Shown: positions 20,129-47,285 of the stretch, piece after piece
Position numbering within the stretch: the first letter of the stretch is position 1
Layout of the letters: the number at the start of each line of letters is the position of its first letter
DNA from: a virus
Lineage: Duplodnaviria; Heunggongvirae; Uroviricota; Caudoviricetes
Length of the DNA: 64,000 bases
Virus record (IMG/VR): IMGVR_UViG_3300042562_001169
Reading direction: 5' to 3' (one strand)
Program-made: the position numbers and the translations under genes
The notes under the pieces: model-generated
Told to the model about the DNA's origin: nothing
Seen by the model: only the letters and a program-made list of their open reading frames with translations
The model's database searches: none

Positions 20129-20149
20129 ATTTATATGATATTTATTGTT

Positions 20150-20344
20150 ATGAAGTTAATTATAACAGAGTCACAATATGAAACCATCAACGAGATGATT
20201 AAACTTAACATTAAGGTAGGTGATACCATTATGGGTGGAAAATTTAAGAACAAGAAGGTTGTTGTGAAGACAATCGACAAGAATGAAAAGGGGGATATTA
20301 CAATAAACGGTAAACCATTGTTACGTTTTAGAATCATAGAATAA
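20150..20344 (+). CDS. MKIIITE-family paralog (MKLIITESQYETINEMIKL)
   Basis: The internal ATG at 20150 reproduces the family leader. The track start at 20135 lies within the terminator tail. Confidence 0.5.
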   Translation: MKLIITESQYETINEMIKLNIKVGDTIMGGKFKNKKVVVKTIDKNEKGDITINGKPLLRFRIIE

Positions 20345-20673
20345 TGAAGATATTGATTAAAGAAGATAAAAGAGATAGAATTGCCAAACGGTTATTAACT
20401 GAGGAATTCTCCGGAATGTATGAAGATGTTAATTATATGACAGATTCACGGGGGGAACACAAAACAATCGAATACCGTAATGGTGAAGGAATCATAATGA
20501 TTTACGGTAATACTGATAATATTTTATATATCTGTGAAGATGTCACTCGTCCACTTAATCTACTTAGTTACACACCAAAACAACTTAAAGATGTTATTGG
20601 TGAATGGTTCTCAGAGTTTTTTGAATTACCGGTTCAATATATTCATCACGTAAATAAATCAGTGTTAAACTAA
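20344..20673 (+). CDS. MKIIITE-family paralog (MKILIKEDKRDR... C-term EWFSEFFELPVQYI)
   Basis: Carries both the N-terminal and the C-terminal family motifs. Confidence 0.55.
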   Translation: MKILIKEDKRDRIAKRLLTEEFSGMYEDVNYMTDSRGEHKTIEYRNGEGIIMIYGNTDNILYICEDVTRPLNLLSYTPKQLKDVIGEWFSEFFELPVQYIHHVNKSVLN

Positions 20674-20674
20674 T

Positions 20675-21268
20675 ATGAAAGAGTTAATTAAAAAAATATT
20701 ACGAGAGGAAGTTCAGAAGAGATTTACAAAATCTAATCAAAGTTTTGAGCGTCTTATTATTAAACAGATGGAGTCTTTAATATCCGAAACAAATAGAGTT
20801 GTTGTCCCACCTGAAGAGAATTATGGAAACTTTAATGAGGAGTGGTGTAAAGGTGATAAAATTATTATGCAGGCAAGATACTTTTTCAGTAGTGAAGATA
20901 GTGATGAAGAAAAGTTTTTTGGTGGTGATTTATATGTTAATAAAGAAGAAATTGATTTTTTATCTCAAATGTTACAGGTTAGAAAACCCTATTTACTTAA
21001 TGTAATTACCGAATGGTATGATGAGAAATACGCTACCAAGTTTGGTCAAGAAACCGGACACCCGGAATTGGAGATTGATGAGACTCACGAAACGGATAGT
21101 GACCATAAATGTTATAAAATGATTAATACTTCAAACCTAAGTAGAGAATATATGATTGATTATATTGATACAAATACATTATATAAACTTAGTGAATTGG
21201 AAAAACTACCTGATGATGAGTTAGAAAGAAAATACCGAAGTGTTTATAATATCCAATTAAATAAGTAA
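20675..21268 (+). CDS. family paralog, ILREE-type leader (MKELIKKILREEVQKR)
   Basis: Tandem array member. Confidence 0.55.
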   Translation: MKELIKKILREEVQKRFTKSNQSFERLIIKQMESLISETNRVVVPPEENYGNFNEEWCKGDKIIMQARYFFSSEDSDEEKFFGGDLYVNKEEIDFLSQMLQVRKPYLLNVITEWYDEKYATKFGQETGHPELEIDETHETDSDHKCYKMINTSNLSREYMIDYIDTNTLYKLSELEKLPDDELERKYRSVYNIQLNK

Positions 21269-21648
21269 TGAAAGTATTAATAACTGAGAGCAGATTAGAA
21301 AGTTTAATCATTGATTACTTAAATGATTCGTATTACCCTGATTATGGGTGGGCAAATCCTGATGTTTATCAAAAAGATGTTAAACAATATGGTGATGTTC
21401 TTTTCTTTGTTGATGACCGAGAATCTTATATTTATTATGGTTGTAATGCAAACGCCGGTCCGGAAGATGAGTTCTTTGCGGGTTATGGTCATCTACATAA
21501 TTATAAATGTCCTTTACTGTCAATATACCCCCTTATAACTCAAAGATTGGATTCTACTTTTGGTGACATATGGAAACCAATATTCAAGAAATGGTTTGAA
21601 GATAATACAGGGTTAGAGGTTACTCAATTAACAACAAATTTCATATAA
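21268..21648 (+). CDS. MKIIITE-family paralog (MKVLITESRLESLIIDYLND... C-term KKWFEDNTGLEVTQL)
   Basis: Carries both the N-terminal and the C-terminal family motifs. Confidence 0.55.
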   Translation: MKVLITESRLESLIIDYLNDSYYPDYGWANPDVYQKDVKQYGDVLFFVDDRESYIYYGCNANAGPEDEFFAGYGHLHNYKCPLLSIYPLITQRLDSTFGDIWKPIFKKWFEDNTGLEVTQLTTNFI

Positions 21649-21947
21649 TGAAAGTATTAATAAAGGAAAGTAAGTATAATAATTTAATTGAGAACTATAT
21701 CCTCAATGGTTATCCTGTAGTTAAAAACGTGACATTTACAACAAAGGATGTTTACTTGGCTAGTGGTAATAAAAGTGAGAGAAGAACAATTCAAAGAAAC
21801 ATCATTAATGTTGGGTTTAGAGGAGGTGAGATGCAGAATAGTCCAACACGAACATTAAGAGAAATTAGAGCTGATATTAATCGTATGTTTGGTTTGGATA
21901 TTGATATGTCAGGTTCACATTGGGGTATTGAGTATAAAATGTTGTAA
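21648..21947 (+). CDS. MKIIITE-family paralog (MKVLIKESKYNNLIENYILNGYP)
   Basis: Tandem array member. Confidence 0.55.
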   Translation: MKVLIKESKYNNLIENYILNGYPVVKNVTFTTKDVYLASGNKSERRTIQRNIINVGFRGGEMQNSPTRTLREIRADINRMFGLDIDMSGSHWGIEYKML

Positions 21948-21949
21948 GT

Positions 21950-22279
21950 ATGAGAATAGTAATCACAGAAAATAAAAGAGATATGTTATTTAGAGAGGAG
22001 TTTAAAAACCTGTTTAATAAATTAACTCCAACAAGAGCCGGACATACCGAGAACATTATCTACATATACTTTGATGAGGTATATGATGATAATGCGGTTA
22101 CAGGGTTGGTATATAGACCAAGTAATCGTCAATTAATTATATATCCGGATTACTTTATTAGTTTAAGAATGTTTGTTTCATCTGAAGAAGAACTAAAGGA
22201 AATGATAGGAATATGTTATGAGGAATTAACTGATAAAATAGTTAGATATTCTTGGATTTGGATAGATAATGAGTTATGA
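21950..22279 (+). CDS. MKIIITE-family paralog (MRIVITENKRDMLFREEF)
   Basis: Tandem array member. Confidence 0.55.
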   Translation: MRIVITENKRDMLFREEFKNLFNKLTPTRAGHTENIIYIYFDEVYDDNAVTGLVYRPSNRQLIIYPDYFISLRMFVSSEEELKEMIGICYEELTDKIVRYSWIWIDNEL

Positions 22280-22605
22280 AAATATTAATCACAGAAAATA
22301 AAAGATACCAATTAGCCTACAAGATATTAGACGATATTTTGAATGGATTGACTCGTGAGGACATTGATTTAAATAAGGATTCCGTATTTAGTAACCAACA
22401 AATAATATTCAGAGATAACAGCGATGACATTTTTATGTGGTGGTCCGAAAAATACGATTTATTGGAAGTTAATAAAGTTATGTGGGAACCACTAAGATTG
22501 TTCTCATTCAGTGGAGAAGAACTTGAAAGAGTTATTCATTGGTGGGTTAAAAATAGATTAAGAATAGAACCGGAGGAGATTAATTTAATTGGTGACTATT
22601 ATTAA
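22276..22605 (+). CDS. MKIIITE-family paralog (MKILITENKRYQLAYKILDD... C-term HWWVKNRLRIEPEEI)
   Basis: Tandem array member. Confidence 0.55.
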   Translation: MKILITENKRYQLAYKILDDILNGLTREDIDLNKDSVFSNQQIIFRDNSDDIFMWWSEKYDLLEVNKVMWEPLRLFSFSGEELERVIHWWVKNRLRIEPEEINLIGDYY

Positions 22606-27812: not shown

Positions 27813-28070
27813 ATGGAGGCAGTATTAAAAATAGTAGATAAGTTAATAGATAAATTCATATTACCTATGGATGATGATATTATGGAATATCACATAACAT
27901 CATATGATGATACAATAGAGATTACATTTTGGATGGCAGGAACCGAATCGGAAGTTGAGGAGGAGATTGTGGAAGAATGTTGGACCGTTTTAAGTACACT
28001 TGGTTCAATACCCTACAGATTTTTATTTAGATTCACTACAGAGGGGGACAATTTCTACGAATACTCATAA
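27813..28070 (+). CDS. hypothetical acidic protein
   Basis: ORF. Confidence 0.4.
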   Translation: MEAVLKIVDKLIDKFILPMDDDIMEYHITSYDDTIEITFWMAGTESEVEEEIVEECWTVLSTLGSIPYRFLFRFTTEGDNFYEYS

Positions 28071-28122
28071 TATAAGTCCTAAACCTTATAAACCACTAAT
28101 ATAAGTCCTAAACCTTATAAAC
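28068..28122. repeat. perfect 26-nt direct repeat x2 (taatataagtcctaaaccttataaac) with a 3-nt spacer
   Basis: Copies at 28068-28093 and 28097-28122, in a convergent intergenic region. Confidence 0.8.
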
Positions 28123-28128
28123 GTGGGA

Positions 28129-28482
28129 TTAATCAATATGATATTTAGTGATATGATATCTACCACATTTATTACAATGCCAAGTAGTATATACAACCTT
28201 TTCAACGTGTAGATTATATCTTTCCATAAACCAAGGGATAAAGATATCGTTTATATCATAACCACTTGTAACACCAAACATAGATACTAATTGATTTGAT
28301 ATCTCCTCAGATAATTCAACTATTCCATTATCACGATTAAATGTGAAAGACATATCGTCACCACTATCTTTATAGATAATAAATCTATGACCAACGGAAT
28401 ACTTCCTTAAGTTACCATAGTCCATATCCAACCATTTGGTAACGACATTTTTTCTCTTGTTCTCTGTGATTATTACTTTCAT
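28129..28482 (-). CDS. MKIIITE-family paralog (MKVIITENKRKNVVTKWLDMDYG; C-term PWFMERYNLHVEKVV plus CNKCGRYH ribbon)
   Basis: Carries both the N-terminal and the C-terminal family motifs. Confidence 0.55.
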   Translation of the reverse strand: MKVIITENKRKNVVTKWLDMDYGNLRKYSVGHRFIIYKDSGDDMSFTFNRDNGIVELSEEISNQLVSMFGVTSGYDINDIFIPWFMERYNLHVEKVVYTTWHCNKCGRYHITKYHID

Positions 28483-28784
28483 ATTTGTTCTACTCTATGA
28501 CATTTCTTGGCTCTAAACCCAAACTTTTTATTACCCCAATCCAATAACAACTCACTAACTTCATCGTTATCAAATCCGAACATACTACGGATAAAATCCC
28601 ATATTTCATTTAAAACATAGAATCCTTTTACTCTACTGTTGTAAAGCATTTTGAACATTCCCTTATCGGATATGAATACTCCTTCGTGTGAGGGGAATAT
28701 CATCTTTTTTAAGTCGGGATATTCCTCTTCTAACCAATTAATGGCGAGACGGATTCGTTTGTTCTCTGTGATTATAATCTTCAT
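28479..28784 (-). CDS. MKIIITE-family paralog (MKIIITENKRIRLAINWLEEEYPD)
   Basis: Coupled to 28129-28482. Confidence 0.55.
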   Translation of the reverse strand: MKIIITENKRIRLAINWLEEEYPDLKKMIFPSHEGVFISDKGMFKMLYNSRVKGFYVLNEIWDFIRSMFGFDNDEVSELLLDWGNKKFGFRAKKCHRVEQI

Positions 28785-29035: not shown

Positions 29036-29659
29036 ATGGAATTAATAGAATCGTTACAGTGGAGATATGCCACCAAGAAAATGAATGGGGACAAAATCCC
29101 ACAAGATAAATTAGAAAGAATCTTAGAGGCGACAAGATTGGCTCCGAGTTCATATGGGTTAACACCGTATCAGGTAATCGTGGTGGAGGACCAAGAATTA
29201 AAGGAGAGATTGGTGGGAGCTTGTTACGGACAAACTCAATTAAAGGATTCATCAGCTGTATTGGTATTTGCGGTGTGGGACGAGATTACTGAATGGGCGG
29301 TGGAGAATTATATCAATGATATTGCAAACCAAAGAAATATCCCGGTAAATGTATTAGAGGATTTCAAAGGAATGATGATAGGGACAATCTCCAATATGAC
29401 GGAGGAACAAAAACAAACGTGGGCTCAGAAACAAACGTATATAGGATTAGGATTCTCATTAGTAGCATCAGCAGTAGAAGGTGTGGATTCAACTCCAATG
29501 GAGGGATTCTTACCTAATAAAGTAGATGAGGTATTAGGATTAAGAGAATTAGGATTAAAGTCTACATTAGTTCTTACATTAGGATATAGAGATACAGAAG
29601 GAGATTCATTATCTACAATGAAGAAGATAAGAAGAGATAATCTATTCATCAGAAAATAA
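29036..29659 (+). CDS. NAD(P)H nitroreductase family protein
   Basis: RLAPSSYGLTPYQVIVV ... IGLGFSLVASAVEGVDSTPMEGF matches the nitroreductase fold. GC content and codon usage are higher than the flanks. Confidence 0.75.
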   Translation: MELIESLQWRYATKKMNGDKIPQDKLERILEATRLAPSSYGLTPYQVIVVEDQELKERLVGACYGQTQLKDSSAVLVFAVWDEITEWAVENYINDIANQRNIPVNVLEDFKGMMIGTISNMTEEQKQTWAQKQTYIGLGFSLVASAVEGVDSTPMEGFLPNKVDEVLGLRELGLKSTLVLTLGYRDTEGDSLSTMKKIRRDNLFIRK

Positions 29660-32473: not shown

Positions 32474-33229
32474 ATGAGAAATATATTTTTAATCCCCACT
32501 TCAATGGAGAGTAGATTGTGGAGGGATTTGGATTCCAATAAATTGACGTTTGAAAATTTATCGAAACCCAATAGTAATGAATGTACCAAGTGTTCCAATG
32601 AGTATGTGTATATTACCTCTGATGAGAAATTTGTTAGAGATGAATATATAACTGATGGACTTGAGGTAATTAAGGCAACACCAAAGTTGGTTGATGCTCA
32701 AGGATTGGTTAATAGAAGAGAATGGAAGAAAATCGTTATGACCAATGACTTGGAATTAACTGAGAATGGTATTCAACAGATTGGGGATTTATTTTTCCGA
32801 TGGTTTGTTTTGAATCCTACCTGTGAGGAAGTTGAGATTGGTAAAACCAATAAACTCCTTGATGTATATGAGGACAAGTGGGAAGTGAGATATCACATTT
32901 ACGATATACACGAGAAACCGAAAAAGAATTTCTATTGTGGGGATGAGGTTGACTATGGGGAACAGTGTGACTTTCAATGTGAGAGATGTGTTAATTGTAC
33001 CGGAGTTGATTATGGATATCTTCCAAAGGAGGATTTGGGTTATACCACTAAGATTGGGATTAAGGTTGTCGATGGTATGGTTAGACCTCTTATGGTTCCA
33101 AAGAAATATTTTGGTGAAGTTGAACATATACATTATAGTTCGGTATTTGATTGGTTATCTAAAAAGGATTACCTATCTGATAAACGAGAAGATATACAGA
33201 GAGAGTTTGAACAATACTTAAATAAATAA
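32474..33229 (+). CDS. hypothetical Cys-rich protein (CGDEVDYGEQCDFQCERCVNC)
   Basis: ORF; terminator downstream. Confidence 0.45.
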   Translation: MRNIFLIPTSMESRLWRDLDSNKLTFENLSKPNSNECTKCSNEYVYITSDEKFVRDEYITDGLEVIKATPKLVDAQGLVNRREWKKIVMTNDLELTENGIQQIGDLFFRWFVLNPTCEEVEIGKTNKLLDVYEDKWEVRYHIYDIHEKPKKNFYCGDEVDYGEQCDFQCERCVNCTGVDYGYLPKEDLGYTTKIGIKVVDGMVRPLMVPKKYFGEVEHIHYSSVFDWLSKKDYLSDKREDIQREFEQYLNK

Positions 33230-33239
33230 TATTGATATA

Positions 33240-33267
33240 CCCCCGCTTATGTAGTTGGGGGTTTTTT
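33240..33267 (+). terminator. rho-independent terminator
   Basis: cccccgcttatgtagttggggg followed by tttttt. Confidence 0.7.
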
Positions 33268-33324
33268 ATTTGACATTGGGGATATAATTGATTATTCTTT
33301 AATTCCATAAGGTATATAACAATT

Positions 33325-33732
33325 ATGGTAAAAACAAAATCAATTTCGTTTCTCAAATACAATAGGTTTGAGTTCGGAGAACAAATCGTTAGTCAATTCG
33401 TGGTCTTTGAATGTAAGTGGCTATTCTCAATCATCTTCTTTTATTTTCATAAATCTCTTGGTAGTCAGGATAGGTTTCATACCCACGCTTTTAACGCGTG
33501 GTCTGTAAAACTGTTTGGGGGATATGATGAGCACATCTTGGATGACGAGGTTGGTGGGGAATATCATATTGTTAGACGTGAGAAGGTCTTGGTTTACTTC
33601 CCCCGGGATTCGTATCATCGGATATCTAATAGTGATGGATGTATGACGGTATTGTTCTCGGGTCCTTGGAAAAAGACTTGGAAGGAATATGTTAATGGGG
33701 AAGTTGTTCACTACGGTTGGGGTCGGGAATGA
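33325..33732 (+). CDS. hypothetical protein (135 aa; higher GC)
   Basis: ORF followed immediately by copy 1 of the 43-bp GC-rich repeat. Confidence 0.4.
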   Translation: MVKTKSISFLKYNRFEFGEQIVSQFVVFECKWLFSIIFFYFHKSLGSQDRFHTHAFNAWSVKLFGGYDEHILDDEVGGEYHIVRREKVLVYFPRDSYHRISNSDGCMTVLFSGPWKKTWKEYVNGEVVHYGWGRE

Positions 33733-33743
33733 CGGACCTCTGA

Positions 33744-33786
33744 CCACCCGAACTCCCTCCGGTCGTATTCAAATCCCCCCGCCCCC
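33744..33786 (+). repeat. 43-bp GC-rich direct repeat, copy 1 (ccacccgaactccctccggtcgtattcaaatccccccgccccc)
   Basis: 41/43 identical to the copy at 35897-35938. Both copies sit directly after stop codons. Confidence 0.85.
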
Positions 33787-33803
33787 TTTTTTTGAAAAAA
33801 TAT

Positions 33804-33834
33804 TTGTTAATATAAACTTTTTATATTATCTTTG
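33804..33834 (+). promoter_or_regulatory. Bacteroidota-type promoter (TTG ...20 nt... TAtcTTTG)
   Basis: -7 box at 33827-33834, upstream of the 33855 gene. Confidence 0.5.
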
Positions 33835-33854
33835 TGGTATTAAAATAAACTACT

Positions 33855-34931
33855 ATGATAAATCAGGAATTATTGGCTGAGGCAACAAATAAATTTAAGA
33901 CATCGAATGACGACATTAAGTTAGAGGGGAATATTATTGACCTATTGATGAAATGTTATATTAAGTATGACCCATCAAAGAGGGGGAATACTCTTCAGAA
34001 GTTGATTATCGAATATTTGGGTAAAGACGTTCTTACGATTCCGGCTACTTGGAACTGTGGGGACTTTGCGTTGGGTGTAGAATCATTCAAGGGGAATAAG
34101 TTATTGAGTAAGATTTTAAAGAAATTGGATTATATCATTGGGGAGACTAAGGTTAAGGATTCTAAATCTATGATAAAGATGAGAAATGACATTATTCAAA
34201 GATTCTTTGAAATTGTTTCAACCTTCTATGAGATTAAGACATCTTATTTGAATGATAAGGGTTCCTACACAATTGGGAACATTAGGACATATCAGAATTA
34301 TCACAACTTGATTGTTTTATTGGTTGACTGTGAGGATTCGTTTAATTATAAACTTCTTTCAATTCCGAAGGAGGATTTAAAGGAGTTTAAGATGCACCAC
34401 CAACACGGAACTAAGGAATCTAACAATGATACAAAGAACCCCCATTTATCGTTTCACGTTAAGAAGGGTTCTGATATTGAAGATAGTTTAAAGAAGTGGG
34501 AGTTACCGGGAGGTTTTGAGGGATTGAACAAGGTATGTAAGATTCAAAGTAGTAAAGTTCGTAGAAATAGTTCAAAGTTGACAAAGGAACAATATGATTA
34601 CATCATAAATGATGAGGTTAAGTTATTCTTTAGTGAACGTGGTTTTGAGGATTATGTAATTGACAATGAGATTGACATTATTCCGTATATCTACAAGAAA
34701 TTCCGTAACATTAAGAAAAGTTCATATAGTAGAGGGGAATCTTATTGGGAGAATGACATGGGTGAGGTTTTATTTTATTATCAGAACCGGTCTTACATTG
34801 TATATGATAGTGTACTTGAGGATATATCTGAAAAGTTTAATTTAACTTATAAGGATGTTATGAATTATCTATCCGTATATTTTGATTTGAGGTATCCTAA
34901 TTTGAAACACTATCAGGTTTTGGAGAATTAG
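33855..34931 (+). CDS. hypothetical 358-aa protein with a possible N-terminal PD-(D/E)xK nuclease motif (E53 ... D70 ... E97-x-K99)
   Basis: ...NCGDFALG ... DYIIGETKVK... has spacing compatible with the restriction-endonuclease-like fold. Motif-level evidence only. Confidence 0.5.
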   Translation: MINQELLAEATNKFKTSNDDIKLEGNIIDLLMKCYIKYDPSKRGNTLQKLIIEYLGKDVLTIPATWNCGDFALGVESFKGNKLLSKILKKLDYIIGETKVKDSKSMIKMRNDIIQRFFEIVSTFYEIKTSYLNDKGSYTIGNIRTYQNYHNLIVLLVDCEDSFNYKLLSIPKEDLKEFKMHHQHGTKESNNDTKNPHLSFHVKKGSDIEDSLKKWELPGGFEGLNKVCKIQSSKVRRNSSKLTKEQYDYIINDEVKLFFSERGFEDYVIDNEIDIIPYIYKKFRNIKKSSYSRGESYWENDMGEVLFYYQNRSYIVYDSVLEDISEKFNLTYKDVMNYLSVYFDLRYPNLKHYQVLEN

Positions 34932-34941
34932 ATATATTGAA

Positions 34942-34972
34942 CCCCCCGCTTTTATTGGTTGGGGGTTTTTTA
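34942..34972 (+). terminator. rho-independent terminator
   Basis: accccccgcttttattggttggggg followed by tttttt. Confidence 0.7.
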
Positions 34973-35011
34973 TTTGAAATTAATTGTTTATACTTAAGAA
35001 AAAAAGTTATT

Positions 35012-35437
35012 ATGAAAAAGTTATTGTTATTATTTGCTCTGTTGTTGATGATTGGGTGTAATATGCCTGTTTATAAAACATATCACACAGATAAAATTTA
35101 TTTAAGACAATTGGTGAATCGTGATGTTACGGAAACTCATACTTCGGGTTCGTTCTTTTTGATTGCCGGTTCGGTTAGTTCGGATAGTGAAACCCAAACT
35201 GTTATAAAAGTTATGGGTGAGGTTAATGGTGAATATCGTTTTATGCAATTTGATTTTACTAAAGCAAGAATCAAAATTGATAATAAGGTCACCACCCCAT
35301 ATATTGTTTTGAATTATGTGGACGATGAAAATAAATCAGTTGATTACTTATTGGAATACGATTACAACGTAAAGTCCGTTACCATTATTTGTCCGGAACA
35401 ATATTTACCTGAGAAATTATTACCAATTCAAATATAG
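35012..35437 (+). CDS. small lipoprotein (MKKLLLLFALLLMIGC...)
   Basis: The internal ATG at 35012 gives a classic signal peptide with Cys lipobox. The track start at 34937 lies inside the terminator. Confidence 0.5.
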   Translation: MKKLLLLFALLLMIGCNMPVYKTYHTDKIYLRQLVNRDVTETHTSGSFFLIAGSVSSDSETQTVIKVMGEVNGEYRFMQFDFTKARIKIDNKVTTPYIVLNYVDDENKSVDYLLEYDYNVKSVTIICPEQYLPEKLLPIQI

Positions 35438-35444
35438 AGATATT

Positions 35445-35894
35445 ATGGAAAACGAAGATAATATAATAAACCTTGCCAACTTTTATGATGGACCTTATGG
35501 TGGTGTTCCATCTCGGATTGCAACACCTCAACCCACCTTTAATGAGTTCCCGGATAACAAGGAAATTGATGTCCCCGAAAAATTAAAGGATGTTGTTAAG
35601 AAGATGTGTCCCGAGATTTTGAATATTGTTTCGGTTGGGTATAGAGAACAAACTGTTTATAACCCTATGAACTTTGAACCGGTATACAAGTATTTGGTTG
35701 GTGTTGATTTATATTTTGATAATCATAATGGAATGAAAAAAGGTAAACACGAATATAGTAAGGAAATTGATGATTATTTTAAAATGACATACGGTAGTGA
35801 GATGGATTTTATATCCTTTCACGTTCAGTCATTTATCTTTCCCCCCGAGAAGACCACTAAGGACAAGTTCTTTGAGTTGTTTGGTAAGGTGTAA
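35445..35894 (+). CDS. hypothetical protein (149 aa)
   Basis: ORF followed by copy 2 of the GC-rich repeat. Confidence 0.45.
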   Translation: MENEDNIINLANFYDGPYGGVPSRIATPQPTFNEFPDNKEIDVPEKLKDVVKKMCPEILNIVSVGYREQTVYNPMNFEPVYKYLVGVDLYFDNHNGMKKGKHEYSKEIDDYFKMTYGSEMDFISFHVQSFIFPPEKTTKDKFFELFGKV

Positions 35895-35896
35895 CC

Positions 35897-35938
35897 CCAC
35901 CCGAACTCCCTCCGGTCGATTTCAAATCCCCCCGCCCC
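35897..35938 (+). repeat. 43-bp GC-rich direct repeat, copy 2
   Basis: ccacccgaactccctccggtcgatttcaaatccccccgcccc. Confidence 0.85.
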
Positions 35939-35981
35939 TTTTATTTTGGAGTTGGGGGATATTTATTATAAAAGATATATT

Positions 35982-36314
35982 ATGTTTTCAGCAGGTGGAG
36001 TTTATGTAATGGTAGCAGGAATCCTATTGGGATTAGCTGTTATAGGTGGGTCAGTTTATTATGTTAATAAAATGTTTGCTGATAACACTCAGGAAATATT
36101 GGTTCGGTTTATTTTATTAATATTCACCTCATTGGTTGCGTTATTTATTGTTGATAAGGTAATTGCTTGGCAGGTTAAACTATTGAGTGATGAGCAGAAT
36201 GGGCAATTATTTGATTTGATTAAAACATTGGTGTTAATGATATTCTCGTATTACTTTGGAACTAAAGAAGGAGTTGAAACCAATGGTGACCAAAATAAGA
36301 AAGATAAAGAATGA
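35982..36314 (+). CDS. small membrane protein (3 TM)
   Basis: The ATG at 35982 is preceded by gggggatatttatt. The track start at 35946 lies in the repeat/terminator. Confidence 0.45.
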   Translation: MFSAGGVYVMVAGILLGLAVIGGSVYYVNKMFADNTQEILVRFILLIFTSLVALFIVDKVIAWQVKLLSDEQNGQLFDLIKTLVLMIFSYYFGTKEGVETNGDQNKKDKE

Positions 36315-36616
36315 AAATTATTATAACAGAAGAACAGTATGGTAGAATGTTTAATTCCAAACTTTGGTTAAGACGTAACTATGATTTGGTTAAACAGGAG
36401 TTGAAGGCTACAATGGACTTCACCCGGGACCGTATCTGTGATAAAGATGAATTTGAAAATTTTGAATATTATTTCTTCTCCGTGTTTATGGATTGCCTTC
36501 ACCCTTATTATTATGAGGAAGAGAATTTTGATTATAAGGAATTTCAAACCACGTTAACTGATATGTTCTATGTTGAATGTACCGAGTTTTATTTTAACGG
36601 TAGAGAGAAATGTTAA
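36311..36616 (+). CDS. MKIIITE-family paralog (MKIIITEEQYGRMF)
   Basis: Tandem array member. Confidence 0.55.
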   Translation: MKIIITEEQYGRMFNSKLWLRRNYDLVKQELKATMDFTRDRICDKDEFENFEYYFFSVFMDCLHPYYYEEENFDYKEFQTTLTDMFYVECTEFYFNGREKC

Positions 36617-36650
36617 CACCCCTTTTAAAGTTAAGGGATATTTATTTGAT

Positions 36651-37016
36651 ATGAGAATTATTATAACAGAAAGTAAATTTAAAAGTATGGTTACCAAAAT
36701 GGTTGGGTATGATTTATCCCACCGTATTGAGATGATTACAAGTTGGGAGAATTTAACCGGTTCGGAAAAACATAATGTATTTGGTGATAATAAATCTATT
36801 TTTGTTCAGTATCAAAACCATTATGGTCCGATGTATATATTTTCAAATTTTAAAGGACATAATTATTTGGCTCAAAATCAAAAAGGTAAACTATGGTTTA
36901 TTGTTGATACAAGTACTGGATACGAAATAGATTACTATGATTTTTTACAAATGCTTAATCTTGATATGACGGGTATTAGTTTAAGAAAAATAATCGATGA
37001 ATTTGCTGAAGAATGA
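36651..37016 (+). CDS. MKIIITE-family paralog (MRIIITESKFKSMVTKMVGYD)
   Basis: The ATG at 36651 is preceded by gggatatttatttgat. The track start is upstream, within a hairpin. Confidence 0.55.
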   Translation: MRIIITESKFKSMVTKMVGYDLSHRIEMITSWENLTGSEKHNVFGDNKSIFVQYQNHYGPMYIFSNFKGHNYLAQNQKGKLWFIVDTSTGYEIDYYDFLQMLNLDMTGISLRKIIDEFAEE

Positions 37017-37351
37017 AAATAATAATTACAGAAAGTAAAGTTGGGCAAGTAAAAAATTTAGTACAAGAAATTATTGATGATGAGTTAAATAACTTACGTC
37101 AAGAGGCTGATGAAGAGTGGGGTTTGGGTGAAATGGATGAGATAAATGAGGTTGGTTCTGTTGAAAAGATTGTTGTTGATGAAATAAAAACAACTGATGG
37201 TATTAGTGTTAATGTCAATCTTTATTTAAACACAGATAGAGAAGATTTTGAAATAATTTTACCAATGATTGAATATACTATTGAGCAATGGATTCCTAAT
37301 GCTAAAATTCATATAAACAAAATATATCTAAATGAAAATAATAATTACTGA
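37013..37351 (+). CDS. MKIIITE-family paralog (MKIIITESKVGQVKNLVQEII)
   Basis: Coupled start. Confidence 0.55.
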   Translation: MKIIITESKVGQVKNLVQEIIDDELNNLRQEADEEWGLGEMDEINEVGSVEKIVVDEIKTTDGISVNVNLYLNTDREDFEIILPMIEYTIEQWIPNAKIHINKIYLNENNNY

Positions 37352-37652
37352 GAGACAGAATAATTTATTGATGGAGGATTTACCCATTAGTCTTCGTAGA
37401 CGAATTAATTATAATATTCTTAAAGACCATTTGGATTTTTCCATATTAGAATCCGTTAATCCTTGTGATTATAGTACATTAGGGGATTTTATTGGTGAGA
37501 TGTGTGATATGATGGTTGTGGATTTTTTAGATGATTTTGAATATGATAGCGGTCTAAAAGTTAGTCCAAAAGATAAAGATGATTTTTATTATTTTATGAC
37601 TGATAATTTTGCTGATTACCTTCAAGAATTTTATGATAAACAATGTGCGTAA
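37332..37652 (+). CDS. MKIIITE-family paralog (MKIIITERQNNLLMEDL)
   Basis: Array member. Confidence 0.55.
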   Translation: MKIIITERQNNLLMEDLPISLRRRINYNILKDHLDFSILESVNPCDYSTLGDFIGEMCDMMVVDFLDDFEYDSGLKVSPKDKDDFYYFMTDNFADYLQEFYDKQCA

Positions 37653-37680
37653 CCGATATATTTATATTAAAACAAATTAT

Positions 37681-38172
37681 ATGAAAAAAATTGTAAGATT
37701 AACTGAAGGAGAGTTAACAAATTTAATAAAAAGAATATTAAAGGAGGATTCGACAAAAAATAATTGTCATAAAGAATATACAAACCCTGAATCCAATACA
37801 GACCCATACATATATAGAATGGGTCCGGAATGTATTTGGCAAACTAAAAGTGATAAAACAAAAAAACAAATAGGTAAAGAAATACCTGATTGGATTTCAT
37901 TATATAAAAATGAAAAGGCAAACCAAAAACTTGATAAATGGTTCCCAAACGCTAAATCGGATTGTTCAAAATGTAAAAATGGTGGTATTAAAAAAACCCC
38001 ACCATCTGATTTAATTAAGAAAAAAGTTGATTTAGTTAAGGGTAAAATTGGTGAAAATAAATGTCCTAAAACCATAAATTGTATGCCGTCACCTAATGGT
38101 AAACCTAACCCTTGTGATGATTTTTTTATTAGTTACTGTATCAAATCAGGTAAGACTTCGGCAACATATTAA
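37681..38172 (+). CDS. family paralog with Cys/Lys-rich C-terminus (MKKIVRLTEGELTNLIKRILKED...)
   Basis: ATG at 37681. Combines the LTE-type and ILKE-type leader motifs. Confidence 0.5.
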   Translation: MKKIVRLTEGELTNLIKRILKEDSTKNNCHKEYTNPESNTDPYIYRMGPECIWQTKSDKTKKQIGKEIPDWISLYKNEKANQKLDKWFPNAKSDCSKCKNGGIKKTPPSDLIKKKVDLVKGKIGENKCPKTINCMPSPNGKPNPCDDFFISYCIKSGKTSATY

Positions 38173-38177
38173 TAATT

Positions 38178-38639
38178 ATGAAAAAGAAAATTATAAAATT
38201 AACGGAATCAGATTTAAAAAACATTGTGATGAGAATTATCAATGAACAATTTGATATGGACTACTACGACATTATTTTGGATTTATATAACGAGGTTGGT
38301 CTTGAGGGTATGACTGATGAAGAAATTGAATATTTGAAAAGTGGCGGTGAGAGTAATGTCCCTGAAAGATTTTTGGGTGGAGACTTGGATATTGATTCTG
38401 AGGAATCTGAAGATTTTGGTGGACTTGATAGATTCAAGGAAATTATGGACGGATACAATCATAAGATTGTGGATACCGCTCCCGACGGTAAGTTGAGAGT
38501 TGTCTTTAGAGAAAACCCTGAGATATTGGAAAGACTTGATGGTGTGGTTCCGGAATCATTAATAGAAGTTAGACAAGGACATATAATCATTCTTGTTCCT
38601 GAAAATTGGACGGATGATATTTTCGGAGAAGAAATATAA
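38178..38639 (+). CDS. family paralog, acidic (MKKKIIKLTESDLKNIVMRIINEQ)
   Basis: ORF; terminator downstream. Confidence 0.5.
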   Translation: MKKKIIKLTESDLKNIVMRIINEQFDMDYYDIILDLYNEVGLEGMTDEEIEYLKSGGESNVPERFLGGDLDIDSEESEDFGGLDRFKEIMDGYNHKIVDTAPDGKLRVVFRENPEILERLDGVVPESLIEVRQGHIIILVPENWTDDIFGEEI

Positions 38640-39180: not shown

Positions 39181-39210
39181 ACCCCAATTATTTATTTAGT
39201 TGGGGTTTTT
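39181..39210 (+). terminator. rho-independent terminator
   Basis: accccaattatttatttagttggggttttttt. Confidence 0.7.
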
Positions 39211-39226
39211 TTATTATCTTTGTCAA

Positions 39227-39487
39227 ATGAAAAAGTTGGTATTCAAATATTTTGACACATTTTGTTACGGGGAACTAATTCCGGATGAGGGTGACTCTAA
39301 TTGGATGAAACCATTTATTGAGTATAATGCGTTTGGATATTCAATTAACGAAAACTATCTATTTTATAATGGAGGTTTGATGGACGATGTTATGGGGATG
39401 TTTAGTGTCGGTAAAGCTGACTTTAGAGAATATTTAATGGAGTGGTTTCAAAATAGATATAATTTACCGGTATCAAATGTTGTGTAA
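39227..39487 (+). CDS. MKIIITE-family variant (MKKLVFKYFDTF...; C-term EWFQNRYNLPVSNVV)
   Basis: ATG sits 4 nt after a TAtcTTTG box (39215-39222), so the mRNA is probably leaderless. Confidence 0.5.
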   Translation: MKKLVFKYFDTFCYGELIPDEGDSNWMKPFIEYNAFGYSINENYLFYNGGLMDDVMGMFSVGKADFREYLMEWFQNRYNLPVSNVV

Positions 39488-41185: not shown

Positions 41186-41506
41186 ATGAGGGTTATAATT
41201 ACAGAAGATAAAAGGGAACGTCTTATTGATAATTTTTTATCTGAGGAATATGGTGGATTAATCCGATATGAACCTAAAAACAGACCTGACCTTATTTTTT
41301 TTGTAAAAGACACGGGAAAAGACCCTATAAAAAGAGATATTGTATTATTTTACAATAAAGATGACCAATATGCTTTTATTAATTGGAATATTGTGGATAG
41401 TATTAGAATGTTCACCGGTGATGAATGGGACTCAGAACAATTTGTTAAAAGATGGTTAAAGAAAACTTACGGGATTGACCCGATTAAATTATACAACAAT
41501 TTTTAA
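41186..41506 (+). CDS. MKIIITE-family paralog (MRVIITEDKRERLIDNFLSEEYGG; C-term KRWLKKTYGIDPIKL)
   Basis: Array member. Confidence 0.55.
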   Translation: MRVIITEDKRERLIDNFLSEEYGGLIRYEPKNRPDLIFFVKDTGKDPIKRDIVLFYNKDDQYAFINWNIVDSIRMFTGDEWDSEQFVKRWLKKTYGIDPIKLYNNF

Positions 41507-41507
41507 T

Positions 41508-42323
41508 ATGAACAAAAGATTAAAATACTTATCTCTTATTAAGAAATTAATTTCTTGCGAAAGTCGTGAGCAATTATCCGACACTATTAAAGAAATTAAT
41601 GAATTTAATAAAGAATATTCTATTACCTCAACGTCGGAAGAATTTAAAAAATTTGAAATTGCTATTGCAGTAATGAGAGTTAAATTAAAACGTAAACACG
41701 ATATTATAGAAAACCAATTGAGGGGTCAAAAACAAAATAACAAGACTAATATGAAAATAGTAATTACAGAAAGACAAGAAGATTTATTATTCAGTTTACT
41801 AACCGAAGGGGAAAACAAACCAACCAACCCAAAGTTATGGGCACAATGTCTTGCTTGGGCAAGGTCAAGATATAAAGTATGTCCAAGTGCGTATTGTAAT
41901 GGAGCTGCTGCCAAACGATATAAATCAAAAGGTGGTGGATGGAGAAAAAATAAAAAATCCACTAATGAGGCATCAAGTCCAACACAACAAGCGGCGATTG
42001 CCATCAATATGAAGAAGAAAGGGGTTGAACCAAAGAACGAAAATGTTAATGAAGATTTGAAAAGATGGTTTAAGGAGAAGTGGGTTGATGTAAGCAAAAA
42101 AGTTGACGGGAAACATCCACCCTGTGGAAGAAAGGACGCTGATGGTAAGTCATATCCAAAATGTCGTCCATCAAAAAAGGTTTCATCTGAAACACCTAAG
42201 GTGGCTTCATCATATGATAAAGATGAGAAGAAAGCGATGACACAACAAAAACGAAGAGCTGAAAAGAAAGACCCAAAAGTGGGAACAGGAAATAAACCAA
42301 CAATGACACATTACGAAAAATGA
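41508..42323 (+). CDS. MKIIITE-family paralog with Lys/Cys-rich body. The leader (MKIVITERQEDLLF) begins at 41751, and an in-frame 81-codon N-terminal extension runs from 41508.
   Basis: There is no stop codon between 41508 and 41751. Confidence 0.45.
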   Translation: MNKRLKYLSLIKKLISCESREQLSDTIKEINEFNKEYSITSTSEEFKKFEIAIAVMRVKLKRKHDIIENQLRGQKQNNKTNMKIVITERQEDLLFSLLTEGENKPTNPKLWAQCLAWARSRYKVCPSAYCNGAAAKRYKSKGGGWRKNKKSTNEASSPTQQAAIAINMKKKGVEPKNENVNEDLKRWFKEKWVDVSKKVDGKHPPCGRKDADGKSYPKCRPSKKVSSETPKVASSYDKDEKKAMTQQKRRAEKKDPKVGTGNKPTMTHYEK

Positions 42324-42691
42324 AAATAGTGATTACAGAATCTCAATACAACAAACTATTCAACGACTTAGACGATAGTTTTTTTGGAACCGTAGAAGAA
42401 ACCAACTTTGTTGTTGGTGACTTACTGACTGAGGCGGAATATCAGGGACGCAAAGTTCAACTTGGTAAAATTATGCAAGGGGATGTTAAAAAATTCAAAG
42501 TGTATGTTAAGAACGACAAAGGAAATGTTGTTAAGGTTAACTTTGGTTTTGGTGGTAAATCGGCAAAAGGAAAACGAATGGTTATCAAAAAAAATAATCC
42601 GGCTAGAAGAAAATCTTTTAGAGCAAGAATGAATTGTGATAGTCCGGGACCAAGATGGAAAGCAAGATACTGGGCTTGTAGAACTTGGTAA
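42320..42691 (+). CDS. MKIIITE-family paralog, basic (MKIVITESQYNKLFNDLDD)
   Basis: Coupled start. Confidence 0.55.
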   Translation: MKIVITESQYNKLFNDLDDSFFGTVEETNFVVGDLLTEAEYQGRKVQLGKIMQGDVKKFKVYVKNDKGNVVKVNFGFGGKSAKGKRMVIKKNNPARRKSFRARMNCDSPGPRWKARYWACRTW

Positions 42692-46384: not shown

Positions 46385-46879
46385 ATGAAATTTATTATTT
46401 GTTTATTGTTTTGTTTGGTTGGGTATTCACAGATTCCCAATAACATTATTATCGGAGATTCCCAAACTCCATACGTTGATAGAAACTCAAAAAAAGTAGA
46501 GAGGGTGGTTGGACTATGGAAAGGTGGGATTGCTGTCCCATACCTTACAAAAATGGTTCAGAGATATAAAGTTTCACCCAATGTCCAAAATGTTTTTTTG
46601 TGTATTGGAACCAACGACTTATATGTGGATAAAGGAATTGATAAATTATTTAAGTCAATACGGATTACATTTCCAAATACCAAGATTTATGTTATTCAGG
46701 GTTCTTGGGGTTGGGGTGGTGTTACTCACACCAAGTATGATAAGATTAAAAAATATTATAAACGATATCAAGAATTGGGTGGAACAATAATTGGACCACC
46801 AATTGGTAAAGGTGACCCCCATTGTGATTGTCCTGTATATAAAGAAATCGGAAAAGTTATTGATAATATCTTGTTGTGA
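46385..46879 (+). CDS. secreted SGNH/GDSL-family hydrolase (lipase/esterase)
   Basis: Signal peptide. Block I GDSQT and block III IGTNDL. Confidence 0.6.
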   Translation: MKFIICLLFCLVGYSQIPNNIIIGDSQTPYVDRNSKKVERVVGLWKGGIAVPYLTKMVQRYKVSPNVQNVFLCIGTNDLYVDKGIDKLFKSIRITFPNTKIYVIQGSWGWGGVTHTKYDKIKKYYKRYQELGGTIIGPPIGKGDPHCDCPVYKEIGKVIDNILL

Positions 46880-46892
46880 GATATTTATTGAT

Positions 46893-47285
46893 ATGAAAAT
46901 TATAATAACTGAGAGTAAATTAAATCAAGCGGTCATTGATTACCTGAACGAGACATACGATACCAATAACATTGGTTGGACATATGGTATTGATGATTGG
47001 GGTAATGAAGTGGACTACGCAATTGAATTTTATACTGACGATTATGATGAAGGTGATAATACTTTATTTAGATGGTATGGTGAAGATTATTGGGATAGTG
47101 ATGATGCTGATGGTTGGGGTGAACCATATCGTAGCGAATTAAAAAGTAAATCTCCTTTGTTAATATTTGAAAATGATGATGTTTTTATTGCTTTAAACGG
47201 TTATTTTGGTGATAAATGGAAACAACCATTTATTGATTGGTTTTGGGATAAATTCCACGTACCGGTTAAGACAATCAATAAGTAG
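46893..47285 (+). CDS. MKIIITE-family paralog (MKIIITESKLNQAVIDYLNETYD; C-term DWFWDKFHVPVKTINK)
   Basis: ATG at 46893 preceded by gagatatttattgat. The track start at 46791 overlaps the upstream gene. Confidence 0.55.
   Translation: MKIIITESKLNQAVIDYLNETYDTNNIGWTYGIDDWGNEVDYAIEFYTDDYDEGDNTLFRWYGEDYWDSDDADGWGEPYRSELKSKSPLLIFENDDVFIALNGYFGDKWKQPFIDWFWDKFHVPVKTINK

What the first reader, a model, noticed from the sequence alone, without database searches (positions are those of the whole stretch)
33855..35437. Candidate PD-(D/E)xK nuclease paired with an early lipoprotein inside the bracketed cassette: possible exclusion or defence module
ORF 33855 has E53...D70...E97-V-K99 (NCGDFALG ... IIGETKVK), spaced as in restriction-endonuclease-like folds, plus a large unrelated C-terminal region. 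It has its own host-type promoter (33804-33834) and terminator. The next gene is a small Cys-lipobox lipoprotein (MKKLLLLFALLLMIGC). The best-known phage superinfection-exclusion factors (T4 Imm/Sp, T5 Llp, Cor) are small lipoproteins. A nuclease plus a membrane lipoprotein in a mobile-looking cassette is a plausible inter-phage competition system. Weak, motif-level evidence.
Basis: partly seen in the sequence, partly recalled or inferred. Interest (0 to 1): 0.65.

Follow-up and report, generated by a model that had tools for sequence, protein, structure and literature searches.

The report
Mobile phage nuclease cassette, unlinked lipoprotein
The gene does encode a restriction-enzyme-like (PD-(D/E)xK) nuclease, but with different catalytic residues than proposed, and it is a self-contained, come-and-go gene cassette in a giant Bacteroidota phage, while the neighbouring lipoprotein is an unrelated, widely conserved phage gene and not its partner.

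Summary

D70 is correct, but E53 and E97/K99 are not conserved. E97-T98-K99 sits in a lineage-specific helical insertion that most relatives lack. The catalytic set is G69-D70 ... E126-I-K128; E126 and K128 are invariant in 75 diverse relatives. The family is uncharacterised: 137 representatives and no Pfam, PHROG, NCBIfam or PADLOC match.

Residues 241-358 belong to a small-protein family ("MKIIITE...") with about 19 hits in the window.

A ~92%-identical relative (L013) has an exactly empty site. Window ~33794-34971 (promoter, ORF, terminator) is therefore a 1.18-kb indel placed just after a C-rich 50-nt boundary element. Homologues sit in different neighbourhoods, next to that element in the eight contexts from this phage clade.

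The lipoprotein (35012-35437) has 232 homologues against 14 for the nuclease, and it is adjacent to the nuclease only in this lineage. The two-gene module is not supported.

Most likely this is a selfish, homing-type or competition endonuclease carried on a PeSL-like shuffling cassette.

The parts
33744..33793 (+). C-rich boundary element, copy 1 (consensus ACCCGRACTCCCTYCGGTCG-N4-6-CAAATCCCCCCGCCCCC-T5-9). It lies immediately after the stop of the upstream 135-aa gene, and the insertion begins at its T-run.
   Evidence: two copies, 92% identical, none expected by chance; the same element is found in L001, L003, L007, L008, L013 and L016; no significant RNA structure (z -0.7; 3 bp consensus).
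33803..33834 (+). Predicted Bacteroidota sigma-A type promoter of the nuclease gene (TTTG-N20-TATCTTTG).
   Evidence: 9 matches in the window against 3.3 expected. TATCTTTG 20 against 4.5 expected; an equivalent motif lies 47-57 nt upstream of the ATG in all six homologue loci. Consensus from PMC9723704.
33855..34931 (+). ORF of 358 aa: a PD-(D/E)xK endonuclease domain (aa 1-240) fused to a C-terminal domain.
34062..34064 (+). [quoted passage not shown]
   Evidence: D in 74 of 75 family members and G69 in 72 of 75. Invariant in the close family.
34074..34217 (+). Lineage-specific two-helix insertion (aa 74-121) between the D strand and the ExK strand.
   Evidence: D-to-E spacing is 9-10 residues in the shortest relatives and 56 here. 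Columns 97 and 99 are gaps in 71-72 of 75 members. Helices 82-97 and 104-121.
34230..34238 (+). Codons of E126-I127-K128, the (D/E)xK motif in strand 124-131.
   Evidence: E126 and K128 are invariant in 75 of 75 diverse family members.
34575..34931 (+). C-terminal domain (aa 241-358). It is a member of the 'MKIIITE' small-protein family that is multiplied in this phage.
   Evidence: Alignment with stand-alone homologues P0035, P0050, P0093, P0100, P0144 and window ORF 28479-28784. An iterated HMM finds 19 window ORFs. Among the nuclease-family proteins the domain is confidently detected only in the close subfamily, with two weak hits in distant members P0021 and P0018.
34939..34971 (+). Predicted intrinsic terminator (GAACCCCC...GGGGGUUU hairpin plus U-run). 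It forms the right end of the inserted segment.
   Evidence: dG -17.2 kcal/mol, z -3.27. The same CCCCC-N-GGGGG-T5-6 type recurs five times nearby (family D1). Similar hairpins follow the gene in L003, L004 and L008.
33794..34971 (+). Presence/absence segment (~1.18 kb) relative to the empty-site relatives L013 and L015. The junction is ambiguous within a TTTTTT run.
   Evidence: L013 5420-5960 = window 33252-33792, and L013 5955-6879 = window 34966-35890. L015 is the same. Sequences read.
35012..35437 (+). Lipoprotein gene (141 aa; lipobox MIGC, Cys16). It is a widely conserved phage gene and not part of the nuclease cassette.
35445..35894 (+). Conserved 149-aa gene of unknown function downstream of the lipoprotein. 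Homologues also lie 2-3 genes downstream of the nuclease in L001 and L004.
   Evidence: No family hit.
35897..35946 (+). C-rich boundary element, copy 2.

Best explanation
ORF 33855 encodes an active-looking PD-(D/E)xK endonuclease. Its catalytic residues are D70, E126 and K128. A lineage-specific helical insertion lies between the two catalytic strands. The C-terminal domain is borrowed from a small-protein family that is highly multiplied in this phage.

The gene sits on a self-contained 1.18-kb unit of host-type promoter, ORF and terminator. This unit is an accessory insertion in the hyperplastic region of a jumbo phage of Bacteroidota. Related contigs reach 308-322 kb. The unit is placed directly after a conserved C-rich 50-nt boundary element.

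Shown:
- the fold;
- the conserved catalytic triad;
- purifying selection;
- an exact presence/absence polymorphism;
- different genomic neighbourhoods in relatives;
- constant adjacency to the boundary element within this phage clade;
- no linkage to the lipoprotein.

Inferred:
- The cassette moves by recombination at the short conserved terminator/promoter-type sequences, as PeSL cassettes do in T4-type phages.
- The enzyme acts as a selfish, free-standing homing-type or marker-exclusion endonuclease. It would cut the DNA of co-infecting relatives that lack it (or possibly host DNA). That would favour its own spread and the exclusion of competitors.

The lipoprotein is a separate, conserved envelope-targeted phage protein of unknown role.
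For: Fold and catalytic set:
- AF2 model pLDDT 81.4.
- E126 and K128 are invariant, and G44, G69, D70, R144, D158 and F163 are at least 90% conserved, in 75 members at 16-41% identity.
- D-to-ExK spacing is 9-10 residues in the shortest members, a canonical hairpin.
- dN/dS is 0.12-0.20 for the least saturated pairs.

Mobility:
- Empty site in L013 and L015 with the junction in a T-run.
- Only 14 close homologues.
- Neighbourhoods differ in L001, L003, L004, L007 and L008.
- Nuclease identity is discordant with the backbone. In L007 the neighbouring gene is 93% identical to its window homologue, but the nuclease is 41% identical.
- A 28%-identical, 201-aa family member occupies the same site after the cupin gene in L029 and L039, between two element copies.
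- The element flanks the gene on both sides in L001 and L004, upstream in the window and L007, and downstream in L003 and L008.
- In L007 the flanks are duplicated promoters.

Context:
- Other nuclease-type cassettes lie in the same region of relatives: GmrSD_N-like plus HNH proteins of 420-424 aa, and a T5orf172 protein.
- No methyltransferase family is listed among the called neighbour genes in any context.
- PeSL precedent: PMC2839356 and PMC4122927.
- PD-(D/E)xK is one of the known homing endonuclease folds (PMC3384342, abstract listed; the detail is from my own knowledge).
Against: - No nuclease activity, target or homing event is demonstrated.
- The gene sits at several different sites, and the junctions fall in regulatory repeats. 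This fits passive cassette shuffling and does not require the enzyme itself. Classical homing gives one site per enzyme.
- The boundary element also bounds cassettes with quite different cargo, and it exists in genomes without the nuclease. The adjacency may therefore only mean 'cargo of a cassette'.
- The function of the C-terminal domain is unknown; no DNA-binding fold was identified.
Confidence: 0.5

Rival explanations
1. A restriction-like 'moron' that benefits the phage rather than itself. The nuclease would degrade host DNA, or the DNA of unrelated competing phages, for nucleotide scavenging or exclusion. The phage's own DNA would be spared by sequence avoidance or by modification.
For: The closest structural neighbours are restriction endonucleases. 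The unit of promoter, ORF and terminator sits between genes that are adjacent in a relative, which is the classical moron layout (morons are discussed in PMC2839356). The phage encodes nucleotide and sugar enzymes: ThyA, a glycosyltransferase and a metallophosphatase.
Against: No methyltransferase or other self-protection gene is linked in any context. ThyA scores as an ordinary thymidylate synthase, so there is no direct evidence of DNA modification. The distribution is very sporadic even among ~92%-identical genomes. No PADLOC match.
Confidence: 0.25
2. One reading: the nuclease and the downstream lipoprotein form one two-gene superinfection-exclusion or defence module.
For: The two genes are adjacent on the same strand in this lineage. 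The lipoprotein gene has no obvious TAnnTTTG box of its own in the window (read), so some read-through co-transcription is possible. The lipobox is invariant. The only PDB sequence hit is T5 Llp, but at E 1.5.
Confidence: 0.04
3. A housekeeping-type structure-specific nuclease (RecU/Hjc-like resolvase or a repair enzyme), or a catalytically inert DNA-binding protein, that happens to be variable among strains.
Against: These scores are lower than those of the restriction and homing enzymes. Resolvases are normally core genes at fixed positions, whereas this gene is absent from most relatives. The catalytic residues are fully conserved, which argues against an inert protein.
Confidence: 0.08
4. 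The nuclease recognises the conserved 45-50-bp C-rich boundary element itself. By cutting it, the enzyme triggers insertion or exchange of cassettes at element copies, acting as a repeat-targeted homing system.
For: In all eight nuclease contexts from this clade the gene directly abuts an element copy. Two family members only 28% identical occupy the same element-adjacent site. The element is conserved as sequence and not as RNA structure. Its length is in the range of homing sites.
Against: Intact, identical element copies flank the gene in L001, so they would be self-targets. I saw no systematic sequence difference between element copies in genomes with and without the nuclease. The element also bounds many cassettes without nucleases. 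A more distant family member (L019) lacks the element.
Confidence: 0.1

Closest known systems
PvuII/BisI-like type II restriction endonucleases (NhoI 8q5n, Eco15I-Ntd, PvuII, NaeI, ThaI)
   Different: There is no detectable sequence similarity and no linked methyltransferase. A 48-residue helical insertion lies between the catalytic strands. The extra C-terminal domain comes from a phage-specific family. The gene is phage-encoded and sporadic.
I-Ssp6803I, the PD-(D/E)xK homing endonuclease (2ost)
   Different: I-Ssp6803I is encoded in a group I intron and has one defined homing site (my own knowledge). This gene is free-standing and intergenic, occurs at several sites, and has no intron or intein context. 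Rfam finds nothing here. Homing is not shown.
Free-standing homing endonucleases of T4-type phages (seg and mob genes) and marker exclusion
   Same: Stand-alone nuclease genes with their own regulatory signals lie between conserved genes, are present or absent among close relatives, and occur in regions that also hold other nuclease genes (HNH, T5orf172). This comparison rests on established knowledge of T4 biology.
   Different: The T4 enzymes are GIY-YIG or HNH proteins, not PD-(D/E)xK. Cleavage of the nuclease-less allele is documented for them and untested here.
PeSL cassettes (promoter-early stem-loop) of T4-type phages, and lambdoid 'morons'
   Same: The cargo ORF is bounded by short conserved terminator/promoter-type sequences. 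The indel junctions fall inside those sequences. The neighbouring genes are adjacent in a relative. The setting is a hyperplastic region with alternative cargo (PMC2839356, PMC4122927).
   Different: The conserved element here is a C-rich, unstructured ~50-nt sequence plus T-run, not a stem-loop. It is present at low copy (2 in this 64-kb window; 1-3 exact-pattern matches per IMG/VR contig, 3 on the 308-kb contig and 2 on the 322-kb one). The promoter is of the Bacteroidota type. Mini-circles are not shown.
T5 Llp, Cor and T4 Imm/Sp superinfection-exclusion proteins (comparison for the lipoprotein only)
   Same: A small phage-encoded protein with a signal peptide and an invariant lipobox cysteine.

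Membership tests
PD-(D/E)xK nuclease superfamily | alpha-beta-beta-beta-alpha-beta restriction-endonuclease-like core fold | tested here: met
PD-(D/E)xK nuclease superfamily | Conserved acidic residue at the start of strand 2 and a (D/E)xK motif in strand 3 | tested here: met
D70 in 74 of 75 members; E126 and K128 in 75 of 75. They lie in strands 71-73 and 124-131.
PD-(D/E)xK nuclease superfamily | Metal-dependent phosphodiester cleavage | not testable with these tools
   Needs purified protein and D70A, E126A and K128A mutants.
Type II restriction-modification system | Cognate DNA methyltransferase encoded next to the endonuclease | tested here: not met
   No methyltransferase family is listed among the neighbours in any context. 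Most neighbours have no Pfam hit at all.
Homing endonuclease (free-standing) | Presence/absence polymorphism of the gene between otherwise collinear close relatives | tested here: met
   Window against L013 and L015: a 1.18-kb indel with flanks 92-93% identical.
Homing endonuclease (free-standing) | A single cognate insertion site, with the enzyme cleaving the empty allele | tested here: inconclusive
   There are several different neighbourhoods. Two divergent family members share the cupin-element site. Cleavage is untestable here.
Homing endonuclease (free-standing) | Sequence membership in a described homing endonuclease family | tested here: not met
   No Pfam, PHROG, NCBIfam or PDB sequence hit. 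There is only fold-level similarity to I-Ssp6803I.
PeSL-like shuffling cassette / moron | Own promoter and terminator; flanking genes adjacent in a relative | tested here: met
   The signals are predicted, not measured.
PeSL-like shuffling cassette / moron | Conserved repeated regulatory sequence on both sides, with junctions inside it | tested here: met
   The element lies on both sides in L001, L004, L029 and L039. Promoters are duplicated in L007. In the window the junction lies in the element's T-run.
PeSL-like shuffling cassette / moron | Excised mini-circles during infection | not testable with these tools
   Needs inverse PCR or read-level metagenome data.
Phage superinfection-exclusion lipoproteins (Llp/Cor type) | Signal peptide with a lipobox cysteine | tested here: met
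   [IVF][GS]C with Cys16 invariant in 24 homologues.
Phage superinfection-exclusion lipoproteins (Llp/Cor type) | Homology or shared fold with a characterised exclusion lipoprotein | tested here: not met
Phage superinfection-exclusion lipoproteins (Llp/Cor type) | Blocks receptor use or DNA entry of superinfecting phage | not testable with these tools
   Phenotypic assay; no cultured host is known.
Known anti-phage defence systems (PADLOC) | Match to a defence-system protein model | tested here: not met
   No hit for the nuclease, the lipoprotein or either neighbour.

The most novel reading that the evidence does not exclude
The enzyme is the founding member of a free-standing PD-(D/E)xK homing endonuclease family whose recognition site is the conserved ~50-bp C-rich boundary element itself. 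Cutting element copies in co-infecting genomes would drive insertion or exchange of whole gene cassettes at those elements. That would be a nuclease-driven engine of modular shuffling in jumbo phages of Bacteroidota.
Probability: 0.1. Interest if true: 0.7.

Novelty: new member of a known kind. Interest (0 to 1): 0.38.

Why it matters
The work defines an unannotated, phage-borne branch of the PD-(D/E)xK superfamily, with 137 cluster representatives and no entry in Pfam, PHROGs, NCBIfam or PADLOC. It gives the correct catalytic residues for mutagenesis.

It also provides a clean natural example of occupied, empty and alternative-cargo alleles in uncultured jumbo phages of Bacteroidota. Gene cassettes are exchanged at a short conserved terminator/promoter-type element. 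The process seems analogous to the PeSL shuffling known from T4-type coliphages, but it uses a different, C-rich element.

If the nuclease proves to be a homing or exclusion enzyme, it would be, to my knowledge, only the second PD-(D/E)xK lineage with that lifestyle and the first free-standing one.

The finding as originally framed, a nuclease-lipoprotein exclusion module, is not supported.

Tried and rejected
Searches that found nothing:
- Sequence-family searches of the nuclease found nothing usable: Pfam, PHROGs (only phrog_37730 at E 0.03), NCBIfam and PADLOC.
- PDB profile searches with alignments A2 and A3 gave only chance hits.
- The INPHARED phage collection gave no DNA or tblastn match.
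- IMG/VR and GTDB scans with A2-derived peptide patterns found no close relative. Alignment A3 was too diverse to seed a scan.
- An exact-pattern scan of GTDB genomes for the lipoprotein gene found nothing, so no host genome context or prophage was seen.
- Foldseek against afdb50 was not available.
- BFVD returned only uncharacterised viral proteins.
- Pfam on 75 family members gave one weak NOV_C hit and otherwise noise.
- Pfam and PDB searches for the C-terminal 'MKIIITE' domain found nothing.
- Rfam on 33000-36500 gave no hit.

Ideas considered and rejected:
- The 50-nt element as a tRNA fragment or attachment site. ARAGORN finds no tRNA in the window, and by eye the T-loop-like TTCAAAT has no pairing stem.
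- The element as a structured terminator. Its fold z is -0.7 and the consensus has only 3 bp with no covariation.
- E97-x-K99 and E53 as catalytic residues. They are not conserved and lie in an insertion.
- An alternative motif assignment using D158-C-E160. D158 is conserved, but position 160 is not (E in 25 and D in 17 of 75), and E126/K128 are the invariant pair.
- A systematic difference between element copies in genomes with and without the nuclease. I saw none.

A global-alignment script meant to display the junction misaligned. The junction rests on the BLAST coordinates and on the sequences read directly.
Full report
**1. What is at the coordinates**

The window carries an ATG ORF at 33855-34931 (+, 358 aa). 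On the same strand it is followed by a gene whose product starts MKKLLLLFALLLMIGC. That gene's ATG is at 35012 and its stop at 35437; the mechanical ORF begins at a TTG at 34937.

Upstream lies TTTG-N20-TATCTTTG at 33803-33834. This is the Bacteroidota sigma-A promoter form, with a TAnnTTTG -7 box (PMC9723704).
- The full pattern occurs 9 times in the window against 3.3 expected.
- TATCTTTG alone occurs 20 times against 4.5 expected.
- An equivalent motif lies 47-57 nt upstream of the ATG in all six independent homologue loci, although the surrounding sequence differs.

After the stop codon a hairpin plus U6 (34939-34971) folds at -17.2 kcal/mol, z -3.3.

Two 50-nt direct repeats lie at 33744-33793 and 35897-35946. 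They are 92% identical, and none is expected by chance.

**2. The nuclease claim**

No family library recognises the protein: Pfam, PHROGs, NCBIfam and PADLOC all fail. Neither does a PDB sequence-profile search.

The large protein collection holds only 14 homologues at 42-100% identity, all metagenomic. An exhaustive profile search reaches 137 cluster representatives at E < 1e-3.

The residues at 97-99 are in fact E-T-K, not E-V-K.

In an alignment of 75 diverse members (16-41% identity):
- E126 and K128 are invariant;
- G44, G69, D70, R144, D158 and F163 are at least 90% conserved;
- the D70-to-E126 spacing runs from 9-10 residues in the shortest members (180-190 aa), a canonical beta-hairpin, up to 56 here;
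- residues 74-121 are therefore a lineage-specific insertion, and positions 97 and 99 are gaps in 71-72 of the 75 sequences.

An AlphaFold2 model (pLDDT 81.4, pTM 0.69) places D70 at the start of strand 71-73 and E126-I-K128 in strand 124-131. The insertion forms two helices between them.

NhoI and Eco15I are BisI-family, PvuII-like PD-(D/E)XK enzymes (PMC11347163).

Pairwise dN/dS among six alleles is 0.12-0.20 for the least saturated pairs. The gene is therefore maintained by selection.

Conclusion: the fold assignment is right, and the catalytic assignment has to be corrected to D70/E126/K128.

**3. The C-terminal part**

Residues 241-358 also occur as stand-alone proteins of about 110-165 aa (P0035, P0050, P0093, P0100, P0144). 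These start MKKII(K/R)LTE(S/N)DL....

An iterated HMM finds 19 ORFs of this kind in the 64-kb window. Most begin MK(I/V/L)(I/L)ITE.

Among the nuclease-family proteins the fused domain is confidently detected only in the close subfamily; distant members P0021 and P0018 give two weak hits. Minimal family members are about 180-200 aa.

The domain has no Pfam or PDB relative. Its role is unknown.

**4. Genomic behaviour**

The window belongs to a large phage.
- L009 and L010 (NCBI GCA_043533215.1) are the same sequence as the window.
- The lipoprotein's exact sequence is seen on contigs up to 272 kb.
- Related IMG/VR contigs are 157-322 kb.

L013, from a 226-kb contig at about 92% nucleotide identity, is collinear with window 33252-33792 and then jumps to 34966-35890. 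L015 does the same.

Read directly:
- L013 has ...CCCCCCGCCCCCTTTTTT|ATTTGAAATTAATTT... leading into the lipoprotein ATG.
- The window has ...CCCCCCGCCCCCTTTTTTT|GAAAAAATATTTG...[ORF]...GGTTGGGGGTTTTTT|ATTTGAAATTAATTG....

So about 33794-34971, which is exactly promoter plus ORF plus terminator, is an indel whose ends fall in T-runs.

The other homologues sit in different neighbourhoods:
- L001: after a 423-aa GmrSD_N-like/HNH protein.
- L007: after homologues of window ORFs 35946 and 36311, and before a 424-aa HNH protein.
- L003, L004 and L008: other genes.

Nuclease identity is discordant with backbone identity. In L007 the neighbouring gene is 93% identical to its window homologue, but the nuclease is 41% identical.

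In IMG/VR contigs L029 and L039 a 201-aa minimal family member occupies the same site as in the window, directly after the cupin-like gene and the C-rich element.
- It is 28% identical to the window protein, with HMM E 1e-51 and motifs GDF...FENK.
- It has its own TTTG...TATCTTTG promoter.
- It is followed by a second element copy.

In L024 the same slot holds unrelated cargo: ORFs of 105, 376 and 120 aa.

**5. The boundary element**

Its consensus is ACCCGRACTCCCTYCGGTCG-N4-6-CAAATCCCCCCGCCCCC-T5-9.

Its properties are:
- In every copy whose gene context I read, it lies on the sense strand just after a stop codon and is usually followed by a promoter-like sequence.
- It flanks the nuclease gene on both sides in L001, L004 (a variant form), L029 and L039.
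- It lies upstream only in the window and L007, and downstream only in L003 and L008.
- In L007 the flanks are duplicated promoters instead.
- It also bounds other cassettes, and it exists at 1-3 exact-pattern copies in IMG/VR contigs in which no close nuclease relative was found; two of these contigs carry the distant 201-aa family member.
- It has no significant RNA structure: z -0.7, and a 3-bp consensus without covariation.
- It is C-rich and G-poor.

My inference is that it is a sequence-level termination or boundary signal, possibly rut-like. Together with the following promoter it would play the part that PeSLs play in T4-type phages. There, recombination between such composites deletes, inserts and circularises cargo ORFs (PMC2839356, PMC4122927).

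**6. The lipoprotein**

The family has 232 homologues at 70-100% identity. Cys16 and long stretches of the mature part are invariant.

It occurs without the nuclease in L011, L013, L016 and L023-L025, and in several neighbourhoods.

Downstream of the nuclease in L001, L003, L004, L007 and L008 there are other proteins, none with a lipobox.

A PDB profile search returns a single, non-significant hit, which happens to be T5 Llp (8a60_B, E 1.5). The clearest identities in that alignment fall in the signal peptide and lipobox.

There is therefore no evidence that this protein is an Llp homologue, and clear evidence that it is not genetically coupled to the nuclease. A role at the envelope, including exclusion, remains possible but untested.

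**7. Interpretation**

Firmly shown:
- a PD-(D/E)xK fold with a conserved catalytic set;
- a selected, intact gene;
- an accessory cassette with its own signals;
- insertion at a conserved boundary element;
- several genomic contexts;
- no methyltransferase partner among the called neighbours;
- no link to the lipoprotein.

Inferred:
- The cassette moves by recombination at the boundary and promoter repeats.
- The enzyme is a selfish, homing-type or marker-exclusion nuclease acting on relatives that lack it.
- The setting supports this: a hyperplastic region that, in relatives, also holds HNH and T5orf172 (GIY-YIG-like) genes.

Rivals:
- A restriction-like moron that attacks host or foreign DNA. 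I cannot exclude this.
- A structure-specific or repair nuclease. This is unlikely given the sporadic distribution.
- A nuclease that targets the boundary element itself. This is attractive because of the invariable adjacency within this clade. It is weakened by intact element copies flanking the gene and by the element's wider use.

**8. Novelty and score**

This is a new, unannotated phage family within a very well known superfamily. It is carried by a known kind of vehicle (moron or PeSL-like cassette) in a little-studied phage group. That is useful, but it is not surprising to a specialist. The proposed two-gene exclusion module is not supported.

Interest is 0.38. The most novel reading, element-targeted homing that drives cassette shuffling, has a probability of about 0.1.

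Noticed in passing
window 20135-22605, 28129-28784 (-), 36311-38639, 39200-39487, 41186-42691, 46791-47285, 476-994: There is a large paralogous family of small proteins. Most begin MK(I/V/L)(I/L)ITE(S/N/E)(K/Q)...; an iterated HMM finds 19 ORFs in 64 kb. The nuclease's C-terminal domain is a member. The family has no Pfam or PDB relative. It is also abundant in related IMG/VR jumbo-phage contigs.
   Followed up: partly
window 33744-33793 and 35897-35946; L001, L003, L013, L016, L024, L026-L039: A conserved C-rich, unstructured ~50-nt element plus T-run lies on the sense strand right after stop codons and is usually followed by a TTTG...TAnnTTTG promoter. It marks mosaic junctions between related phages. 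For example, the 251-aa gene at window 32474-33229 sits at a different position in L013. It may be a Rho-type or boundary signal and a PeSL analogue.
   Followed up: partly
L029 1373-1978 (-) and L039 4398-5003 (-): A minimal 201-aa member of the same nuclease family (28% identity) is inserted at the same cupin-adjacent site, between two element copies. Separate MKIIITE-family ORFs follow it. In that genome, core and 'C-terminal domain' homologues are neighbours rather than fused.
   Followed up: partly
L001 4559-5830, L007 7191-8465, L013 4142-5404, L029 2561-3823 (-): Proteins of 420-424 aa with a weak GmrSD_N (DUF262)-like N-terminus and a C-terminal HNH motif lie next to the nuclease slot in relatives. 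The window has no homologue. They look like a second mobile nuclease cassette of the same region.
   Followed up: partly
window 55392-56663: This thymidylate synthase is 423 aa long and matches the ThyA models in two to four separate stretches. That implies an insertion relative to the 264-318-position ThyA models it matches.
   Followed up: no
window 18750-19358: This ORF is a homologue (68% identity) of the L001 T5orf172/MUG113-domain protein, which belongs to the GIY-YIG-like superfamily. It may be another selfish nuclease-type gene.
   Followed up: no
window 28068-28093 and 28097-28122: A perfect 26-nt direct repeat (TAATATAAGTCCTAAACCTTATAAAC, twice, 3 nt apart) lies in an intergenic gap next to the minus-strand paralogue pair 28129-28784.
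   Followed up: no
window 33325-33732: The upstream 135-aa gene matches phrog_4786, 'cysteine dioxygenase' (cupin-like), at E 1.7e-21. It is 92% identical in relatives and serves as the conserved left anchor of the insertion site.
   Followed up: no
window 35012-35437 against L013 5960-6003: In L013 the lipoprotein gene is preceded by a TATATTTG -7 box. In the window the corresponding sequence is TATACTTAAG. The lipoprotein here may therefore depend on read-through from the nuclease promoter.
   Followed up: no
window 8133-8972; 12862-14291; 29036-29659: These auxiliary genes are an SPFH/Band-7 protein (phrog_200), a family-2 glycosyltransferase plus metallophosphatase pair that is also conserved in relatives L004 and L019, and a nitroreductase.
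   Followed up: no
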